IMG/VR virus record: IMGVR_UViG_3300021388_000002
DNA length: 64,000 nt
From: a virus
Taxonomy: Duplodnaviria; Heunggongvirae; Uroviricota; Caudoviricetes
Strand: one strand, 5' to 3'
Of the stretch, positions 3,933 to 59,288 are shown one piece after another (the stretch's first letter is position 1; the number at the start of each line of letters is the position of its first letter). The notes under the pieces were generated by a model that made no database searches, was not told the DNA's origin, and saw only the letters and a list, made by a program, of their open reading frames with translations. The position numbers were made by a program, and so were the translations under genes.

Positions 3933-5579
3933 CTACAGCCGCCCGGCCGAGTGGTCGGCCAGCAGCACCGGGACCGCCGCGTCGAACCCGGAGACGTCCA
4001 GCGTGCCCGGGTCGGCCGGGTCGGCCACCGAGATGCGCGTCGGCACCGTCGCGACGAACTGCAGCTTCGCGCCGATGCCCATCGTCTGCCGGTAGGCCTC
4101 CAGGGCCTGGTGCGGGTGCGCCTGGCCCACGTTGATCTCACCATCGGTCCAGACGGTGAACGTGTCCACCTCCACCCGGTTCTGCGCGGCCCAGATCATC
4201 GGCAGCGCGATGTTGGTGGCACCCATGGGCAGGTCCGAGACCCGCCGCAGGACGGTGTCCAGCCGCATCCGCGGGGACAGGTCCAGCGGCCGGAACTCGT
4301 GGCTGAACCCGTACACGCCCCAGGCCGGCTCGGTGGCCATGGTAACCAGCGCCATGGCCGCCGTCATCTCCCGCGCCGTGCAGCCGTAGCCGGCCGCGTT
4401 CCAGCCCATCGACGCCGAGATGTCCAGCGCGATCATGGTCCGCTTCCCGGCCGGCTCCACCGCGCCGAAGGCCAGGTAGAACGCATCGGTCAGCGCATCG
4501 GTGACCTGCGGGATGGGCGCCCACCGGCTGGAGCCCTTCTGGCTGCGCCCGGTCGTGTAGACCCGGGCCGCGATCAGCAGCGACATCGGGTGCACCCGCC
4601 CGCGCCGCAGCAGCTCCGCGTCCCGCAGCCGGTCACACACCGCCCGCAGCCGGGCCGACATGGGCGCGATGACATCCAGCCGGGTCAGCGTCGGCAGGTT
4701 CCGGATCAGCGCGGTGATAGGCATGCCCGCATCGACCAGGGCACCCCAGACCTCCGGCATGGCCCGGGCCCCGTCCGGCAGCGCCTCCCACGGCAGCCCC
4801 GGGTAGTCGGCGATCAGCTGCACGTACGCCGCCGCCTTCGCCCGCCGGGCCAGCGCGGAGCCGGACGCCCGCTCGATGTCGCGCGCCCGCAGGTAAGCCC
4901 GGACCCAGTCTGGCATCAGCTCATCCGGCACCACGCCCGAGGTGACCCAGGCGAACAGCCGGCTGTGCATCTCCATGACGGTGCCGTCCGGCAGGGCCGG
5001 GTACGGGTGCGCCAGCCGCAGGATGTCGGCGTGCGTCCAGCCGTCCCGCTGCCGGTACTTGACCAGCTGGTAGGCCAGCGCGTCCGGGTCGCGGCCCAGG
5101 TACCAGGACGACACCGCCCGCCGGGTCACCGGGCCCCAGCCGCCGAACTGCTCGATGTACTTGCAGAACGTCGCCAGGGCCGAGCCGGTCCGCACGACAG
5201 CCGGGACCGCCCGCTCAGCCGCCCGGCGGCCCTCCGCGGTGGCGCCCAGCTGCAGGGCCGCCGCCAGCGCCAGCAGGGCAGGGGCCTGCCGCGGAGCCCG
5301 GCCCGCGACCGAGATCTGGGTGACCAGGCCCACCAGCTGCCCGGTGCGGTCCCGCGCCCAGGCCAGCACCAGCTCGCCGTTCTCGCGGGTCAGCTGCGCC
5401 TCGTCCACGTAGAACGTGCCGCCCGTGGTGCCCATGGTCAGGAACCGGCGCAGCCGCACCTCGTCAGCGACGGCAAAGCCCCAGCCCCCGGTGTGGTTGG
5501 GCACCTGCCGCGGGTCCGCCTGGACGTGCACAGGCGTAGCGGCGTTGCGGGTCCGGATCAGCTCCAGCGCATCGGTCAT
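3933..5579 (-). CDS. rsr: Ro60/Rsr TROVE-domain RNA-binding protein with vWA domain
   Basis: LRRFLTMGTTGGTFY, YQLVKYRQRDGWTHADILRLAHP, vWA MIALDISASM, FTVWTDGE; GGAGG SD at 5586-5590, so start is ATG 5579. Confidence 0.93.
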   Translation of the reverse strand: MTDALELIRTRNAATPVHVQADPRQVPNHTGGWGFAVADEVRLRRFLTMGTTGGTFYVDEAQLTRENGELVLAWARDRTGQLVGLVTQISVAGRAPRQAPALLALAAALQLGATAEGRRAAERAVPAVVRTGSALATFCKYIEQFGGWGPVTRRAVSSWYLGRDPDALAYQLVKYRQRDGWTHADILRLAHPYPALPDGTVMEMHSRLFAWVTSGVVPDELMPDWVRAYLRARDIERASGSALARRAKAAAYVQLIADYPGLPWEALPDGARAMPEVWGALVDAGMPITALIRNLPTLTRLDVIAPMSARLRAVCDRLRDAELLRRGRVHPMSLLIAARVYTTGRSQKGSSRWAPIPQVTDALTDAFYLAFGAVEPAGKRTMIALDISASMGWNAAGYGCTAREMTAAMALVTMATEPAWGVYGFSHEFRPLDLSPRMRLDTVLRRVSDLPMGATNIALPMIWAAQNRVEVDTFTVWTDGEINVGQAHPHQALEAYRQTMGIGAKLQFVATVPTRISVADPADPGTLDVSGFDAAVPVLLADHSAGRL

Positions 5580-5639
5580 GGCGCACCTCCTGTCGTGCGG
5601 TTCGTGCTGCGGTCGTGCGGGCTGAGGGCGCAGGGCCCC

Positions 5640-5718
5640 GCGAGCGAAAAGCGGCAGCCGGGCTGTTTTCACAGATTCCTTTGGATGAGAAAGGTGAGAA
5701 CCGGTCACCATCCGGCCC
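5640..5718 (-). ncRNA. Y-RNA-like gene 4 (short, no tRNA module)
   Basis: 5' GGGCCGGAUGGUGACCGGUU pairs with 3' CCGGCUGCCGCUUUUCGCUC; termini shared with the three upstream copies. Confidence 0.6.
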
Positions 5719-5748
5719 GCGGGGGCCCTGCGTCTTCAGTTGTGCCTG

Positions 5749-5873
5749 GCAAGCAAAGTGCGGCTACCGGGTTTTACGCGCTCTGCCGTTGAGCTACCGG
5801 GGTCACTGACCCCAGGCGGGACTCGAACCCGCAACCTCGCCATCCACAGTGGGTAACCGGTTGCCATCCGGCC
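5749..5873 (-). ncRNA. yrlA: YrlA-type Y RNA with permuted tRNA module (T arm, closed acceptor stem, D arm)
   Basis: GCGGG-UUCGAGU-CCCGC, CUGGGGUCA/UGACCCCGG, UAGCUCAACGGCAGAGC, enclosed by a GGCAACCGG/CCGGUAGCC stem; upstream of Ro60. Confidence 0.85.
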
Positions 5874-5892
5874 TGCCAGGTAAAGCGAGCTG

Positions 5893-5995
5893 GCGAGCGA
5901 AGCGCGAAGACCGGGTTCCCCGCCCTGCGGGGAGGGCCAGGTTTTATCCCGGCCCGGTGGAATCGAACCATCGGTAACCAGCCTTCATCCGGCCC
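5893..5995 (-). ncRNA. Y-RNA-like gene 2 (T-loop hairpin only)
   Basis: 5' GGGCCGGAUGAAGGCUGGUU pairs with AACCCGGUCUUC; contains UGGUUCGAUUCCA; 3' GCUUCGCUC. Confidence 0.65.
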
Positions 5996-6016
5996 GCCAG
6001 CAAATCGTGAGGAGAC

Positions 6017-6117
6017 GGGCGAAAGCTGAGCACCGGCTAGACCCCTGGAAGGGGCTGGGGCTTCACAGACCCCGGGTGGGCTTGCGCCCTGGCGTGATAA
6101 CCGCCGCTCTCCGGCCC
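6017..6117 (-). ncRNA. Y-RNA-like gene 1
   Basis: 5' GGGCCGGAGAGCGGCGGUUA pairs with UAGCCGGUGCUC; 3' GCUUUCGCCC. Confidence 0.6.
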
Positions 6118-6149: not shown

Positions 6150-6168
6150 TTACGCGATTCGCGTATTG

Positions 6169-6207
6169 TGGCCCCGGCGGGACTCGAACCCGCACACCCG
6201 GCTTAGG
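6169..6207 (-). pseudogene. 3' half of split tRNA-Arg(CCT)
   Basis: CCTAA GCCGG GTGT GCGGG TTCGAGT CCCGC CGGGGCC A; acceptor strand matches the 5' half at 6712-6744. Confidence 0.85.
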
Positions 6208-6279
6208 TTGGCCCGGCGGGACTCGAACCCGCACGCACGACTTAGGGGGTCGCCGCTCTATCCTCTGAGCTACGAGCCA
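6208..6279 (-). tRNA. tRNA-Arg(CCT), nested copy, C33
   Basis: Cloverleaf, loop CC CCT AA, U1-A72; overlapped by the endonuclease 3' end. Confidence 0.8.
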
Positions 6280-6688
6280 TTGGGTCTAGCAGGTATGCCG
6301 CAGCGTCCCTAGTACCTAGAGACTGGTTATTGCGGGCAGGCTGCAGTCTAAGGGCGACCGTGCGCCTGTAACCAGCTACATCTTCAATAGGGATCAGATA
6401 GACCTGGCTTAGAGCGGCTAGATAAACCCCGAAAAGATCAACTTGGCCCTCGTAACACTTACGCGGCGATCCGGGCCCCGAACTGGAGACATTGAACTCT
6501 AGCGCCGAACCGTCCCTCACCAGGCGTGCTGTTTTGCACTGAACCCGCTTGAACTGGCCGCTCGACTCAATGACCAGGTCATACCGCGTAACCCCAAATG
6601 GCACGAGCACGTTGTAGCCAGCATGCAGCAAGACCGAGAGAATAGCGCCTTCAGTCCGTGCACCCTTCTCATTGGTAGTGAGGGCCAT
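6242..6688 (-). CDS. PD-(D/E)XK endonuclease, I-Ssp6803I-like
   Basis: KGARTE...YDLVI...RVQCKT...YEGQVDLFGVY; stop codon lies in the anticodon loop of the nested tRNA. Confidence 0.85.
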   Translation of the reverse strand: MALTTNEKGARTEGAILSVLLHAGYNVLVPFGVTRYDLVIESSGQFKRVQCKTARLVRDGSALEFNVSSSGPGSPRKCYEGQVDLFGVYLAALSQVYLIPIEDVAGYRRTVALRLQPARNNQSLGTRDAAAYLLDPMARSSEDRAATP

Positions 6689-6695
6689 GGTTTAT

Positions 6696-6701
6696 AGACT
6701 A
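6696..6701 (-). promoter_or_regulatory. -10 box TAGTCT for the endonuclease (leaderless)
   Basis: 7 nt before ATG 6688. Confidence 0.5.
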
Positions 6702-6711
6702 CCAGCTAGCT

Positions 6712-6744
6712 GGCCGTGGCTCTGATCCATTGAGCTACGGGGCC
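6712..6744 (-). pseudogene. 5' half of split tRNA-Arg(CCT)
   Basis: GGCCCCG TA GCTC AATGGATCA GAGC C ACGGC C, then unrelated sequence. Confidence 0.85.
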
Positions 6745-7885: not shown

Positions 7886-7951
7886 GTGCTGGCAAAACCA
7901 GCTGAATAACAGTTAATTACCGACGAACTTCAGCTAATTAACTGCCATACG

Positions 7952-8023
7952 CGCGCCCAGGAGGACTCGAACCCCCATTGGCGGCTCCGTAGGCCGCAGC
8001 CCTATCCGTTGGACGATGGGCGC
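7952..8023 (-). tRNA. tRNA-Arg(ACG)
   Basis: GCGGC CT ACG GA GCCGC. Confidence 0.92.
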
Positions 8024-11407: not shown

Positions 11408-11408
11408 G

Positions 11409-11448
11409 TGGGCCGGGCGGGGCTTGAACCCGCGACCCCCGTCTTAGG
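11409..11448 (-). pseudogene. 3' half of split tRNA (anticodon uncertain, Lys-like body)
   Basis: (CC)TAA GACGG GGGTC GCGGG TTCAAGC CCCGC CCGGCCC A; pairs with the 5' half at 11949-11980. Confidence 0.8.
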
Positions 11449-11522
11449 TGGCACGGGTGGGACTTGAACCCACGTACGGCCGATTATGAGTCGGCTGCTT
11501 GGACCAGCTCAGCTACCGCGCC
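11449..11522 (-). tRNA. tRNA-CAT (Met or Ile2), nested copy
   Basis: GCCGA CT CAT AA TCGGC; HNH stop lies in its anticodon loop. Confidence 0.85.
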
Positions 11523-11933
11523 TCGGCCGAACTGGACATCCCGGGCACACTTAATAGAGCAAGAGGACGGATTGCCGCCCTTGACCAGGTGCGTCTGCCT
11601 GCGCAGCCGCTCGAAAGATTTACCGCACCCGGGGCAGACCAGCATAACTACAGCCGCTGGTTTATGCCCCTTCCTGATGTTGGCTGCTCGTGCCAGAGAC
11701 TGGATGTTCGCCGGATCATCATTAGACGGATCGTCGTCTATATGATCAGCGTCCACCTCCTGGGCTGGAATAGCGCCAAGCCGGATTGACAGCAGGTAAC
11801 GAGCGAAGCTCATCGTTGTCCGGTGATGTGGGCTGGTGAGAACAACGATCTTCCTGTTCTGCTTCTGGTCCAGATAGGGCCCATATACCGTGTACGCAGT
11901 AAACGGGGCTGGATGGGGCAGAAGGCTGGCCAC
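11484..11933 (-). CDS. HNH endonuclease with C-terminal Cys motifs
   Basis: VDADHIDDDPSNDDPANIQ HNH core, CPGC and CSIKC. Confidence 0.85.
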   Translation of the reverse strand: MASLLPHPAPFTAYTVYGPYLDQKQNRKIVVLTSPHHRTTMSFARYLLSIRLGAIPAQEVDADHIDDDPSNDDPANIQSLARAANIRKGHKPAAVVMLVCPGCGKSFERLRRQTHLVKGGNPSSCSIKCARDVQFGRGAVAELVQAADS

Positions 11934-11939
11934 GCGATC

Positions 11940-11945
11940 ATTATA
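11940..11945 (-). promoter_or_regulatory. -10 box TATAAT for the HNH (leaderless)
   Basis: Consensus hexamer 6 nt before GTG 11933. Confidence 0.65.
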
Positions 11946-11948
11946 CGT

Positions 11949-11980
11949 GACGTCACTCTGACCAGCTGAGTTACCGGCCC
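11949..11980 (-). pseudogene. 5' half of split tRNA
   Basis: GGGCCGG TA ACTC AGCTGGTCA GAGT G ACGTC. Confidence 0.8.
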
Positions 11981-12146: not shown

Positions 12147-12234
12147 CGGAGGAGGTGGGGATCGAACCCACACGGGAGTTACCCCTGACCGTTTTCGGGA
12201 CGGTATCCGGCGCCAGCCCTCGGATGGCCCCTCC
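12147..12234 (-). tRNA. tRNA-Ser(CGA), C33
   Basis: GGAGG acceptor, long variable arm, ACCGT CC CGA AA ACGGT, G73. Confidence 0.85.
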
Positions 12235-13149: not shown

Positions 13150-13189
13150 AGCCCCACAGCGGGATCGAACCGCTGACCTTCGCCTTACG
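13150..13189 (-). pseudogene. 3' half of split tRNA-Thr(CGT)
   Basis: CGT AA GGCGA AGGTC AGCGG TTCGATC CCGCT GTGGGGC T. Confidence 0.88.
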
Positions 13190-13261
13190 AGCCTGCTCGG
13201 AGGATCGAACTCCGACTATTTCCTTACCAAGGAGGCGTGCTGCCATTGTCACTAAGCAGGC
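13190..13261 (-). tRNA. tRNA-Thr(GGT), nested copy
   Basis: GCCTGCT/AGCAGGC acceptor, loop TT GGT AA; anticodon stem has mismatches. Confidence 0.78.
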
Positions 13262-13662
13262 GTGTTCAGCTCATACTGCTCGGCCAGCCTGATCCCCTTC
13301 TGCTGGTTGTTCCTGGCCGGCTCCAGCCTGAGCGATCCGAGACGGCTTCCCACGTCCTCGACCGGCACCAGGTAGACCTTGGTGTTCTGCGGGCAGTAAA
13401 CGCCGAAGTACTCAGCTTCTCCCCGGTAAGGCCGGGTGCTGCCGCCGCGGTGAGCGTGCGAGCTGGCTGCGTTGAAATCTATGCGGCCATCTCGCATCCA
13501 GCCCGTTTTGCACTGGATGCGCAGGAACTTACCCCCATCGTCCACCACCATGTCGTAGCGACGGCCGTTCCCGAAAGGGATCAGTACGCTGTCGTAGACC
13601 TGGAGAAGGGCTGCCATGACGATGGCTTCGGTCCGATCGCCGATGCTGTGTGTATTAGGCAC
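13252..13662 (-). CDS. PD-(D/E)XK endonuclease, I-Ssp6803I-like
   Basis: IGDRTE...RYDMVVD...RIQCKT...Y.GEAEYFGVY; stop inside the nested tRNA-Thr. Confidence 0.88.
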   Translation of the reverse strand: MPNTHSIGDRTEAIVMAALLQVYDSVLIPFGNGRRYDMVVDDGGKFLRIQCKTGWMRDGRIDFNAASSHAHRGGSTRPYRGEAEYFGVYCPQNTKVYLVPVEDVGSRLGSLRLEPARNNQQKGIRLAEQYELNTPA

Positions 13663-13668
13663 ACCATC

Positions 13669-13674
13669 ATCTTA
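13669..13674 (-). promoter_or_regulatory. -10 box TAAGAT for the endonuclease (leaderless)
   Basis: 6 nt before GTG 13662. Confidence 0.55.
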
Positions 13675-13677
13675 CAC

Positions 13678-13709
13678 AGGCGACGCTCTGCGGGCTGAGC
13701 TAGCGGGGC
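13678..13709 (-). pseudogene. 5' half of split tRNA-Thr(CGT)
   Basis: GCCCCGC TA GCTC AGCCCGCA GAGC G TCGCC T. Confidence 0.88.
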
Positions 13710-14773: not shown

Positions 14774-14852
<79 letters not shown>

Positions 14853-14859
<7 letters not shown>

Positions 14860-14917
14860 TCGAACGGGGCACCTGCTCATTACGAGTGAGCTGTTCTTCC
14901 GGCTGAACTACCGGGGC
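14853..14917 (-). pseudogene. Truncated tRNA-Thr(CGT) lacking the 3' acceptor strand, fused into tRNA-Leu(GAG)
   Basis: GCCCCGG, D arm, GCTCA CT CGT AA TGAGC, then a T arm whose last 7 nt are the Leu 5' end. Confidence 0.8.
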
Positions 14918-15025
14918 AGCAGCAGCCTGCGAGACCAGGGTCGCAAACTCCTGGCACACCGCACAGGCGTCCCTGTTCCCGGTCCCGCCAGGTAATGCCC
15001 GCGTAGACCGGTCTCGGCTGCCTAG

Positions 15026-57913: not shown

Positions 57914-58479
57914 CACCGGCCCCCGGTTCCCGCGCGGTCCAGCCAGCCCAGGTCCGTGATGACCCCGCGGTGCTCGTCCAGCCGGACCGGCTCGGCCCCG
58001 GCCCGCTCGGCCTTCATCACCCGGTCGGCCAGGACGACGTTCACCGCGCAGGCCAGGTTCAGGCAGTGCAGGGACGGGATGACCACGAAATCGGTGCAGT
58101 GCCGCTTGCTTACCTGGCCGAGGCCGCCATCCTCGGGGCCGAACACATACACCGCGTCCTGCGGGTGCTCGAACCAGGTGAGCGGGGTCGCGCTGGGCAT
58201 GACCTCCACGGCCACGATCCGGGTACCGGAAGCGAACGCCTCGAACGGGTAGTCGCACCAGCACAGCTCAGTGTCCGCGTACGCCTTCATGCGCTCCTCC
58301 CGCGGCAGCCGGCGCCGGGCGGCCAGCTCCTCGGTGACCCGCTGGCCGGTGACCCACAGCTGGCGCACGCCGAACGAGCTGCAGGCCCGGAGCGCGCCCG
58401 CCACGTTGTGCCCGTGCTTGGGGTTGGTCAGGATGACGGCCGGGAGCCGGCCCCGGCCCGCCGGGTAGGTATGGCTCAT
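57913..58479 (-). CDS. SpoU/TrmH-family RNA 2'-O-methyltransferase
   Basis: NPKHGHNVAGALRAC, VFGPEDGGL, VIP...LNLACAV SPOUT motifs 1-3. Confidence 0.9.
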   Translation of the reverse strand: MSHTYPAGRGRLPAVILTNPKHGHNVAGALRACSSFGVRQLWVTGQRVTEELAARRRLPREERMKAYADTELCWCDYPFEAFASGTRIVAVEVMPSATPLTWFEHPQDAVYVFGPEDGGLGQVSKRHCTDFVVIPSLHCLNLACAVNVVLADRVMKAERAGAEPVRLDEHRGVITDLGWLDRAGTGGR

Positions 58480-59288
58480 GATGTCTCCTCCAGATCCGGC
58501 ACCAGTTCTGCCGGGAACGTCTCTTTCAGCTCATACGCCTGGGTAGCGCCGATCAGCGCGTACATGGCGGACGGGCGCTTAGCCTGAGCGTCCTGCCGGG
58601 CAGTCTGCTTCTCTATCCATTGCCGCTGCGTGCCGTCGTCGGTGCGGACCATCCACGGCAGCCGGGTTCCTTCCCCCAGCCGGGGCGGCAGCAGAGCCGG
58701 AAACACGCCCGTGCCCGCGGGCGTACCCGTGTCCGCGGCTGTGCCCGTGGCTGTGGCCGCAGCCGGCTGCTGTGCCCGTTGCTCGGCCTCACGCAGCAGC
58801 CGGATAATGGGCTCCGAGACGTACCGGCAGACAACGGCGTACTCCTCACCGTCCATGTCCCGGATGGCTTTCCAGGCGATGGCAGCGTTCATCGAGTCCA
58901 CCGCCTTGCGCAGCGCGGTGTGGAACCCCTCAGAAATCATGGAACGGATGGCGCTCTCGGTGACGCCATACGGGCCACCGAGCGCACGCAGCTCCTGGCG
59001 CAGGCGGCGCAGCTCACCGATCAGCTCCAGGGTCTCGCCCGGCGAGGCGAAACCCTTCTCAGCCCGGCGGGCCGCCGCTGCGATCTTGCGGTCCTCCATG
59101 CCCGCATAGGGCAGCGGGGAGCCGGCCGCCTCGTCCGGGATGAACGTGGCCAGGTCCACCAGGGCGCCATAGGCCTGCCGGACGTCAGTGATGTCCTCCC
59201 AGCCCAGCTCCTCGCCGTGGGCCTCGAACACCCGCTTGAGCGTGCCCAGGGCCTCTTTCGCGGTCGCCCGCATAGTCTGGTCAGTCAT
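58476..59288 (-). CDS. Hypothetical protein
   Basis: GGAG SD, ATGA coupling. Confidence 0.6.
   Translation of the reverse strand: MTDQTMRATAKEALGTLKRVFEAHGEELGWEDITDVRQAYGALVDLATFIPDEAAGSPLPYAGMEDRKIAAAARRAEKGFASPGETLELIGELRRLRQELRALGGPYGVTESAIRSMISEGFHTALRKAVDSMNAAIAWKAIRDMDGEEYAVVCRYVSEPIIRLLREAEQRAQQPAAATATGTAADTGTPAGTGVFPALLPPRLGEGTRLPWMVRTDDGTQRQWIEKQTARQDAQAKRPSAMYALIGATQAYELKETFPAELVPDLEETS

What the first reader, a model, noticed from the sequence alone, without database searches (positions are those of the whole stretch)
13150..13709. Nested cassette 1: tRNA-Thr(CGT) split at the anticodon loop by an I-Ssp6803I-like nuclease plus a complete tRNA-Thr(GGT)
Seen: 5' half, -10 box, nuclease ORF, intact tRNA-Thr(GGT) overlapped by the ORF stop, 3' half. 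The inner tRNA's discriminator U sits exactly at position 33 of the outer tRNA, so joining the halves gives a perfect TT CGT AA loop with TCGCC/GGCGA and GCCCCGC/GTGGGGC stems. Known: I-Ssp6803I is a PD-(D/E)XK homing endonuclease in a group I intron of a tRNA anticodon loop. Here there is no room for a ribozyme core (15 nt before the ORF, none after). Inference: intron-less tRNA homing compensated by a carried isoacceptor, or a half-ligation route in which processing of the inner tRNA defines the junction.
Basis: partly seen in the sequence, partly recalled or inferred. Interest (0 to 1): 0.84.

Follow-up and report, generated by a model that had tools for sequence, protein, structure and literature searches.

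The report
Endonuclease-plus-tRNA cassette splitting phage tRNA-Thr
A small selfish DNA cassette, made of a DNA-cutting enzyme gene joined to its own threonine tRNA gene, sits in the anticodon loop of an older threonine tRNA gene in a phage tRNA array; there is no self-splicing intron, and related phages suggest the split outer gene is a leftover, not a working gene.

Summary
On the minus strand, 13709-13678 and 13189-13150 are two halves of one tRNA-Thr(CGT) gene, with 21 of 21 stem pairs when joined. Between them lie 15 nt, an intact 136-codon I-Ssp6803I-family PD-(D/E)XK nuclease gene (Pfam PF11645, E 5e-35; PDB 2OST, E 3e-6) and a complete tRNA-Thr(GGT). The nuclease's stop codon is U8-A9-G10 of that tRNA. 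No group I intron is detectable, and there is no room for one.

Two more cassettes of the same build lie in this array. Nine syntenic metagenomic arrays carry the same nuclease-plus-tRNA module at the same place.

These relatives change the reading:
- The upstream tRNA piece is always kept and can run to position 48.
- The 3' half is usually absent, or sits about 23 nt away.
- One array has the Thr gene uninterrupted, with the nuclease in the neighbouring tRNA-Gly instead.

I therefore read it as a free-standing homing-endonuclease cassette that carries a replacement tRNA. The outer halves are most likely a DNA relic. RNA-level rejoining is unsupported.

The scan has noted the same design in other phages before. 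I found no paper describing it. It is a new variant of a known kind.

The parts
13678..13709 (-). 5' part of the outer tRNA-Thr(CGT) gene (positions 1-32): acceptor strand, D arm, 5' strand of the anticodon stem, T32
   Evidence: Read directly. Pairs 7/7 and 5/5 with the 3' half. 28/33 identical to the same piece in L020, where homology with the window starts exactly at position 1. The D loop AGCCCGCA lacks G18, which L020 keeps.
13663..13677 (-). 15-nt junction/spacer holding a -10-like hexamer TAAGAT (13674-13669) 6 nt before the start codon. Probably the decayed remainder of a tRNA anticodon arm carried by the cassette.
   Evidence: Read directly. The same hexamer-6 nt-start geometry occurs in L018, L056 and cassette 3. 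The simple sigma-70 scan finds no full promoter, so the promoter is inferred only. In L055 and L056 the matching stretch is an intact anticodon arm plus variable loop.
13252..13662 (-). Intact 136-codon PD-(D/E)XK homing-endonuclease gene of the I-Ssp6803I family (GTG start). Its last 10 nt, including the stop TAG, overlap the inner tRNA.
   Evidence: Pfam PF11645 E 5e-35, 121 bits. PDB 2OST E 3.3e-6 with YD...QxK aligned. 462 homologues, the closest 93% identical. 44% identical to the second copy at 6242-6688.
13190..13261 (-). Inner, complete tRNA-Thr(GGT), physically coupled to the nuclease gene
   Evidence: ARAGORN. Rfam tRNA 39.8 bits against a cut-off of 29. The same tRNA type (GCCTGCT...GCAGGCT) follows the nuclease in L017, L053, L056 and L020. 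Its anticodon stem has two C-A mismatches that L056 lacks.
13150..13189 (-). 3' part of the outer tRNA-Thr(CGT) gene (positions 34-73): anticodon CGT, A37 A38, 3' stem strand GGCGA, variable loop, T arm, acceptor strand, discriminator. Base 13190 could equally be outer U33.
   Evidence: Read directly. Orphan T arm at 13170. Joined tRNA folds. Variable loop, T arm and trailer CGCAGT match the intact Thr(GGT) of L018 and L060. The joined gene is 82% identical to L018's.

Best explanation
This is a DNA-level selfish cassette, not an intron.

The mobile unit is a free-standing I-Ssp6803I-type PD-(D/E)XK homing-endonuclease gene. It has its own leaderless-type start (a TANNNT hexamer 6 nt before the start codon). 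It is fused head-to-tail to a complete tRNA-Thr(GGT) gene, and the nuclease's stop codon lies inside that tRNA.

The enzyme is inferred to cut the nearly palindromic anticodon-arm DNA of a sensitive tRNA-Thr allele near positions 33/34. Break repair from a cassette-bearing phage then copies in the nuclease plus its own, presumably resistant, tRNA. The resident gene's 5' part survives as the left recombination arm. Its 3' part is kept (this window, L056) or lost (most relatives).

The outer tRNA-Thr(CGT) is therefore a split relic that is most likely not rejoined. Decoding is covered by the inner tRNA, by the array's other Thr tRNAs and by the host.

Shown: the anatomy, family membership of the nuclease, absence of a ribozyme, conservation of the nuclease-tRNA module, variable fate of the outer halves, and a switch of the nuclease from the Thr site to the Gly site.

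Inferred: cleavage specificity, homing, promoter use, and non-function of the outer tRNA.
For: Anatomy and nuclease:
- The anatomy and pairing of the halves are confirmed.
- The nuclease is PF11645 and matches 2OST. I-Ssp6803I recognises a 23-bp pseudo-palindromic target (PMC3384342), which fits an anticodon arm.
- No group I model hits at E<=1 or at gathering score in eight relatives. Only 15 nt of the insert are neither ORF nor tRNA.

Relatives:
- Syntenic arrays (Gln(ttg), tRNA piece, nuclease, Thr(ggt), Gly(gcc), Leu(cag), Ser(gct)) carry the module in L017, L018/L019, L020, L053, L054, L055, L056 and L060. The stop codon lies inside the tRNA each time.
- The upstream tRNA piece is present in all but L054, where it is degenerate. 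It runs to position 48 in L055 and L056.
- No 3' half adjoins the inner tRNA in L017, L018, L053, L054 or L060. In L056 it lies about 23 nt away, its acceptor pairs only 5/7 and the upstream D stem is broken.

Mobility:
- L059 has an uninterrupted, nuclease-free Thr(ggt) at the orthologous place; its flank matches the window's 92% over 25 nt.
- In L059 the nuclease sits instead in tRNA-Gly(gcc): the resident Gly 5' part, the nuclease, then a different intact Gly allele. That nuclease nests inside the Thr-associated clade (95/95 support).

Wider family:
- Members sit within a few nt of a tRNA gene in Ktedonobacteria, Solirubrobacterales, Streptomyces, Haloarchaeobius and the cultured T5-like phage My1.
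- Homing endonucleases that cut tRNA genes and rearrange phage tRNA clusters are experimentally known (SegB: PMC13096335; cited in PMC8421152).
Against: - No cleavage data exist.
- No near-identical empty-site allele was found. L059 is a distant relative, and two exact-pattern scans of IMG/VR were blank.
- The outer halves here show no decay in any stem (21/21 pairs). This means either a recent event or some constraint.
- The flush junction between inner position 73 and outer position 34 occurs in all three cassettes of this phage, one of which has an unrelated HNH nuclease. Simple break repair does not predict that.
- The inner tRNA has a different anticodon from the outer, so 'replacement' is not exact.
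- The promoter is only a -10-like hexamer.
Confidence: 0.65

Rival explanations
1. Local rearrangement relic without cassette homing. The nuclease nicks or cuts tRNA genes of its own array, and error-prone repair has produced partial tRNA duplications and fragments, as SegB does in T6. The nested look is a by-product, inherited vertically, and the unit does not move as nuclease plus tRNA.
For: SegB-driven tandem amplification of a tRNA plus segB, with microhomology at the junction (PMC13096335). The module sits at the same array position in nearly all relatives. L056 shows a 13/15 duplication of positions 34-48 on both sides of the insert. Arrays hold other orphan tRNA pieces.
Against: The nuclease moved to the neighbouring tRNA-Gly in L059, with the same layout and a foreign Gly allele. 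Homology between the window and L020 starts exactly at position 1 of the outer tRNA, so the unit is exchanged as a block. Three cassettes share the same register in one array.
Confidence: 0.18
2. Ribozyme-free RNA splicing. The outer tRNA is functional: RNase P and RNase Z release the inner tRNA, a further cut frees the 5' half, and an RNA ligase joins the halves into tRNA-Thr(CGU).
For: The halves have perfect stems, and the junction with the inner discriminator is flush in all three cassettes. The outer acceptor strands pair in the minimum-energy fold of the 571-nt transcript. The phage encodes Ro60 with Y-RNA-like genes, so it does deal with RNA quality control.
Against: - The 3' half is absent in six related arrays and displaced in L056.
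- The register is not conserved, and cassettes 2 and 3 would give tRNAs without U33.
- The window's D loop lacks G18 while L020 keeps it.
- The fold z-score is only -1.9.
- No nuclease is known that would cut after position 32/33 of the 5' half.
- None of the ten large reading frames scanned with Pfam matched an RNA ligase family.
- A second Thr(CGT) gene makes the product redundant.
Confidence: 0.07
3. The outer halves act as an RNA clamp rather than a tRNA. Pairing of the 5' and 3' halves gives a tRNA-like acceptor/T-arm end. This lets RNase P and RNase Z excise the whole cassette from the array transcript, or stabilises the nuclease mRNA as an artificial tRNA scaffold does.
For: Acceptor pairing closes the whole 571-nt fold. 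The T arm and acceptor are intact. tRNAs in this array abut with 0-2 nt spacers, so processing is by neighbouring tRNA structures.
Against: Most relatives do without the 3' half. The nuclease has its own start signal inside the clamp. There is no comparative covariation yet.
Confidence: 0.07

Closest known systems
I-Ssp6803I, the PD-(D/E)XK homing endonuclease of the group I intron in Synechocystis tRNA-fMet (PDB 2OST; PMC3384342)
   Same: Same protein family (PF11645, 121 bits; 2OST E 3e-6). Same kind of host gene and same place in it, a tRNA anticodon loop. A pseudo-palindromic target is expected.
   Different: There is no group I intron around the gene, so the host tRNA cannot be restored by self-splicing. 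A complete second tRNA gene is carried instead. The setting is a phage tRNA array of an actinobacterial-type (about 65-70% G+C) phage, not a cyanobacterial chromosome.
SegB of phage T4/T6 and the T5 tRNA-region endonucleases: free-standing homing endonucleases in phage tRNA clusters (PMC2330249 as cited in PMC8421152; PMC13096335)
   Same: A free-standing nuclease gene among phage tRNA genes. It is inferred to cut tRNA genes of relatives and to carry neighbouring tRNA genes along. Nuclease-driven duplications of tRNA DNA occur.
   Different: SegB is GIY-YIG and lies between intact tRNA genes. Here the fold is PD-(D/E)XK, the gene lies inside a split tRNA gene, and its reading frame ends inside the tRNA it carries.
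HNH endonuclease genes linked to long tRNA arrays in Mycobacterium, cyanobacteria and mycobacteriophages (PMC5966550, PMC8421152)
   Same: Long arrays of about 38 tRNA genes with embedded endonuclease genes, thought to help the arrays spread and diversify.
   Different: Those papers describe adjacency only. They describe neither a nested split tRNA nor a coupled replacement tRNA.
Nuclease-plus-tRNA cassettes nested in split tRNA genes, noted earlier by this scan on other DNA (e1-5355234, e1-5387095, e1-3829496, e1-5322616, e1-2722251)
   Same: Same layout: 5' half, nuclease, intact tRNA, 3' half, no ribozyme. Several have PD-(D/E)XK nucleases in phage arrays.
   Different: These are unchecked AI notes on other genomes, and I did not re-test them. 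This case adds a syntenic series of relatives showing the 5' piece reaching position 48, frequent loss of the 3' half, and a Thr-to-Gly site switch.

Membership tests
PDDEXK_5 / I-Ssp6803I-type homing endonucleases (PF11645) | Sequence matches the family profile above the curated cut-off | tested here: met
   121 bits against a cut-off of 26.1, E 5e-35, profile positions 2-137 of 138
PDDEXK_5 / I-Ssp6803I-type homing endonucleases (PF11645) | Similarity to the solved I-Ssp6803I structure, with the catalytic-core motif conserved | tested here: met
   2OST_A E 3.3e-6. YD(M/L)V and (I/V)Q(C/V)K blocks aligned. Assigning these as catalytic residues rests on my memory of Zhao et al. 2007.
PDDEXK_5 / I-Ssp6803I-type homing endonucleases (PF11645) | Site-specific cleavage of the uninterrupted tRNA allele | not testable with these tools
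   Needs an enzyme assay on the joined outer gene, the inner gene and L018/L059-type alleles
Group I intron in a bacterial or phage tRNA anticodon loop | Ribozyme core (P3-P9) detectable around the endonuclease ORF | tested here: not met
   No Intron_gpI hit at E<=1 in 5-21 kb. None at gathering score in eight related arrays. Only 15 nt of the 487-nt insert are neither ORF nor tRNA.
Group I intron in a bacterial or phage tRNA anticodon loop | U at -1 and G at the last intron position | tested here: not met
   The insert ends with the inner tRNA's C72/T73, not G
Free-standing homing endonucleases of phage tRNA clusters (SegB type) | Nuclease gene with its own expression signals among tRNA genes, not inside an intron or intein | tested here: met
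   ORF in the array with a TANNNT hexamer 6 nt before the start codon. The same geometry occurs in L018, L056 and cassette 3. The promoter is not shown experimentally.
Free-standing homing endonucleases of phage tRNA clusters (SegB type) | GIY-YIG catalytic domain | tested here: not met
   The domain is PD-(D/E)XK. It works like SegB but is not a member.
Free-standing homing endonucleases of phage tRNA clusters (SegB type) | Presence/absence polymorphism among related genomes at the same locus | tested here: met
   L059 has an uninterrupted Thr(ggt) without the nuclease at the orthologous place, and has the nuclease in tRNA-Gly instead. No near-identical empty site was found.
Split or intron-containing tRNA genes rejoined at RNA level (archaeal BHB type) | Bulge-helix-bulge motif at the exon-intron junctions and a splicing endonuclease | not tested
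   Not examined. The window looks like tailed-phage DNA (tape-measure-type PHROG hits), and no such enzyme is known in bacteria or their phages (established knowledge).

The most novel reading that the evidence does not exclude
The split outer tRNA is a working gene. The nuclease-plus-tRNA insert would be removed from the transcript by ordinary tRNA-processing enzymes: RNase P and RNase Z acting on the inner tRNA, plus one more cut. The halves would then be sealed by an RNA ligase. That would be a protein-dependent, ribozyme-free tRNA intron in a bacterial virus, with the flush 73/34 junction as its design feature.
Probability: 0.07. Interest if true: 0.9.

Novelty: new variant of a known kind. 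Interest (0 to 1): 0.6.

Why it matters
Homing endonucleases are thought to survive inside essential genes only by hiding in self-splicing introns or inteins. This design shows a third way: break the gene and bring a spare copy.

If confirmed, it would explain several things:
- why phage tRNA arrays carry so many small nuclease genes and tRNA fragments;
- how tRNA alleles are swapped between phages;
- why tRNA finders miss or miscall genes in such arrays.

The nuclease's stop codon lies inside the carried tRNA. Cutting out the tRNA would therefore leave the nuclease message without a stop codon. This suggests a built-in brake on nuclease expression that could be tested.

The enzymes themselves would be compact, sequence-specific cutters of tRNA genes.

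Tried and rejected
- Group I intron: rejected.
- Close DNA relatives among deposited phages and plasmids: only scattered tRNA matches. The nuclease has no plasmid match and only distant phage matches.
- Whole genome: none held for this window.
This says nothing about expression or about empty sites.
- IMG/VR exact-pattern scans for the joined anticodon arm and for the outer T arm plus acceptor: blank.
- IMG/VR protein scans: one distant locus for cassette 1 and none for cassettes 2 and 3.
- Four protein look-ups returned no DNA.
- ARAGORN intron mode as evidence: rejected as unreliable in arrays. It gives chimeric calls and a false tRNA-Ser at 58110-58806.
- Microhomology at the right junction as the cause of the flush join: considered and dropped. 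Once the register is fixed, only 0-1 nt are shared in each cassette.
- Remnant of an older nuclease gene upstream of the 5' half: none.
- Full sigma-70 promoter: none found by the simple scan.
- How the first nest arose, and why position 73 abuts position 34, is still unexplained.

Full report
**What is there**

The window carries about 38 tRNA genes on the minus strand between 6.2 and 19.6 kb. Next to the array is a Ro60 gene (TROVE plus vWA domains). Elsewhere there is a 1926-aa protein with tape-measure and transglycosylase PHROG hits. It therefore looks like part of a large phage, at about 65-70% G+C. Earlier notes of this scan say the same.

On the minus strand the finding reads as follows:
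- 13709-13678 is a tRNA 5' part: acceptor strand GCCCCGC, D arm, anticodon-stem strand TCGCC, then T32.
- 13677-13663 is a 15-nt spacer.
- 13662-13252 is an intact 136-codon ORF with a GTG start.
- 13261-13190 is a complete tRNA-Thr(GGT) (ARAGORN; Rfam 39.8 bits).
- 13189-13150 is a tRNA 3' part: CGT AA, GGCGA, variable loop, T arm, GTGGGGC, discriminator.

Joined, the two outer parts fold as a canonical tRNA-Thr(CGT) with every stem pair formed. The 12 pairs between the halves would arise by chance at about 1e-5.

**The nuclease and the missing ribozyme**

The ORF matches Pfam PF11645 at 121 bits against a cut-off of 26.1. It also matches the solved I-Ssp6803I structure 2OST at E 3e-6, with the YD...QxK blocks aligned.

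cmscan at E<=1 over 5-21 kb finds no group I intron. Eight related arrays have none at gathering score. Only 15 nt of the 487-nt insert are neither ORF nor tRNA. The insert ends in C-T rather than the G expected at the end of a group I intron. It is not a group I intron.

**The design repeats**

Two more cassettes of the same build lie in the same array:
- Cassette 2, 6744-6168: a second PF11645 gene, 44% identical to the first, plus an inner tRNA-Arg(CCT), inside a split tRNA-Arg(CCT).
- Cassette 3, 11980-11408: a weak HNH_3 match plus an inner tRNA(CAT), inside a split tRNA with a CCT-like loop.

A scan for orphan T arms finds exactly these three 3' halves. The rest are one unrecognised tRNA-like unit and the Y-RNA-like units.

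**What the relatives show**

The closest homologues of the nuclease (55-93% identity) lie in metagenomic tRNA arrays with the same gene order as the window. That order is Thr(cgt), Leu(gag), sometimes Thr(tgt), Gln(ttg), a tRNA piece, the nuclease, Thr(ggt), Gly(gcc), Leu(cag), Ser(gct). The arrays are L017, L018/L019, L020, L053, L054, L055, L056 and L060. Five points follow.

1. The nuclease gene always runs into the following tRNA, and its stop codon lies in that tRNA. In the Thr cases the stop is usually TAG at positions 8-10. In cassettes 2 and 3 it is TAA in the anticodon loop. In phage My1 it is TGA at positions 5-7 of tRNA-Ile. Nuclease plus tRNA is thus one conserved module.

2. A 5' tRNA piece stands in front of the nuclease in all but L054, where it is degenerate. 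In L055 and L056 it is not a half. It runs through a complete anticodon arm and variable loop to about position 48. In the window, the 15-nt 'spacer' matches the start of the 3' half at 10 of 16 positions. It looks like the decayed remainder of that arm.

3. The 3' half is usually missing. Nothing like it follows the inner tRNA in L017, L018, L053, L054 or L060. In L056 a 3' fragment starts about 23 nt after the inner tRNA. It repeats positions 34-48 of the upstream piece (13 of 15 identical). Its acceptor pairs only 5/7, and the upstream D stem is broken. The register 'discriminator = U33' is therefore not conserved.

4. The joined outer tRNA is most like the intact Thr(GGT) that follows the nuclease in L018 (82% identity). 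It shares that tRNA's variable loop, T arm and trailer CGCAGT, as does L060. The outer gene is thus a normal allele of the array's Thr gene at this position.

5. In L059 the Thr gene at this position is uninterrupted and has no nuclease in front. The 25 nt just upstream of it match the window's flank just upstream of the 5' half at 92%. The L059 nuclease sits instead in the next tRNA. There the layout is the 5' part of the resident tRNA-Gly(gcc), the nuclease, then an intact Gly(gcc) of a different allele, with no 3' half. In a tree this Gly-associated nuclease nests within the Thr-associated clade (95/95 support). The nuclease therefore changes tRNA sites and leaves the same footprint each time.

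Between the window and its closest relative L020, homology begins exactly at position 1 of the outer tRNA. Identity is 28/33 in the 5' part, 14/15 in the spacer and 363/401 in the ORF. The differences in the 5' part fall in the D loop, where the window has lost G18 and L020 keeps it, and at one wobble-compatible acceptor position.

**Wider family**

PF11645 genes in Ktedonobacteria, Chloroflexia, Solirubrobacterales, Streptomyces and Haloarchaeobius nearly always lie within a few nt of a tRNA gene. The tRNAs are Lys, Arg, Asn, Ile, Met, Ala and Asp, in either orientation, and no group I intron is present. The family as a whole is tRNA-gene-associated and mostly free-standing.

**How it most likely works**

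I-Ssp6803I recognises a 23-bp pseudo-palindrome (PMC3384342). An anticodon arm in DNA is a natural near-palindrome centred on the anticodon.

I infer that the enzyme cuts a sensitive Thr allele near positions 33/34. The break would then be repaired from a phage that carries the cassette.
- The recipient's 5' part pairs with the donor's upstream tRNA piece and survives.
- The nuclease and its own tRNA allele are copied in.
- The recipient's 3' part is either replaced or left behind.

This reading accounts for four things: the sharp boundary at 32/33, the well-kept positions 1-32 next to a decayed 34-48, the agreement in isotype between the upstream piece and the carried tRNA (Thr/Thr, Gly/Gly, Arg/Arg), and the variable fate of the 3' half.

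A TANNNT hexamer 6 nt before the start codon recurs here (TAAGAT) and in L018, L056 and cassette 3. It fits the leaderless transcripts common in Actinobacteria (established knowledge). A simple sigma-70 scan finds no full promoter, so this remains an inference.

Experimental precedent exists for endonucleases that cut phage tRNA genes, spread the neighbouring tRNA genes and cause duplications there. The example is SegB.

**What stays unexplained**

- The junction of inner position 73 with outer position 34 is flush in all three cassettes of this phage, although one has an unrelated nuclease. Break repair does not predict this, and junctional microhomology is only 0-1 nt.
- The outer stems are undecayed.

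These two points keep the RNA-level readings alive: rejoining of the halves, or a tRNA-like clamp. The outer acceptor strands do pair in the minimum-energy fold, though the z-score is only -1.9. Several points speak against these readings:
- loss of the 3' half in most relatives;
- the lack of U33 in the joined tRNAs of cassettes 2 and 3;
- the missing G18;
- a redundant intact Thr(CGT) at 14845-14918;
- none of the ten large reading frames scanned with Pfam matched an RNA ligase family.

**Novelty**

Free-standing endonucleases in phage tRNA clusters are known, and so is I-Ssp6803I in a tRNA intron. I found no paper describing a nuclease-plus-tRNA cassette nested in a split tRNA gene.

This scan has noted the same design on other DNA several times. 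Those are unchecked notes and are not counted as support. I class this as a new variant of a known kind.

Noticed in passing
window 6168-6744 (minus strand): Cassette 2 has the same build. It consists of the 5' part of a tRNA-Arg(CCT) from 6744, a PF11645 ORF at 6688-6242 (E 1.4e-26), an inner tRNA-Arg(CCT) at 6279-6208, and a 3' half from 6207. The inner and outer T arms are nearly identical, while the acceptor and anticodon stems differ in a compensated way. The joined loop is CA-CCT-AA, without U33.
   Followed up: partly
window 11408-11980 (minus strand): Cassette 3 has the same build with an unrelated nuclease. It consists of a 5' part from 11980, an ORF at 11933-11484 (weak HNH_3 match, E 1.5e-3), an inner tRNA(CAT) at 11522-11449, and a 3' half from 11448. 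TATAAT lies 6 nt before the GTG start. The ORF's stop codon lies in the inner tRNA's anticodon loop.
   Followed up: partly
L017 5976-6325; L059 3027-3392: Complete bacterial class A RNase P RNA genes (296 and 271 bits) lie inside the related tRNA arrays, directly after tRNA-Thr(GGT). The window's own array has none at E<=1 in 5-21 kb.
   Followed up: partly
window c1, c2, c3; L017, L018, L053-L056, L059, L060; L057 (phage My1) 1498-1965: In every case the nuclease ORF ends inside the downstream tRNA. RNase P cutting at the tRNA's 5' end would therefore remove the stop codon from the nuclease message. tRNA maturation and nuclease translation may be mutually exclusive.
   Followed up: no
window 3933-5711 and 5743-6117 (minus strand): A Ro60 homologue (TROVE plus Ro60 vWA domains) lies next to Y-RNA-like units. 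YrlA matches at 47.6 bits, below the gathering score, and there are orphan T arms at 5968 and 5828.
   Followed up: partly
window 12148-12234 (minus strand): A tRNA-like unit with a good T arm is missed by ARAGORN and hits tRNA-Sec at 31.9 bits. It is probably a long-arm tRNA (Ser type), as at the matching place in L017 (around 7915-8010).
   Followed up: no
L014 2676-4055; L015 2528-4057 (Haloarchaeobius chromosomes): A PF11645 gene is flanked by two identical tRNA-Asp(GTC) genes, plus extra 23-nt copies of the tRNA's 3' end. This is a whole-tRNA duplication around the nuclease in an archaeon.
   Followed up: no
L001-L006, L010, L011, L021-L039 (Ktedonobacteria and soil metagenomes): The nuclease gene ends 3-8 nt from the 3' end of a tRNA-Lys gene on the opposite strand, in dozens of loci. 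No tRNA fragments were detected by BLAST.
   Followed up: partly
window 58110-58806 (minus strand): ARAGORN's intron mode calls a tRNA-Ser(cga) with a 600-nt intron here. The structure is poor and I regard it as a false positive.
   Followed up: yes
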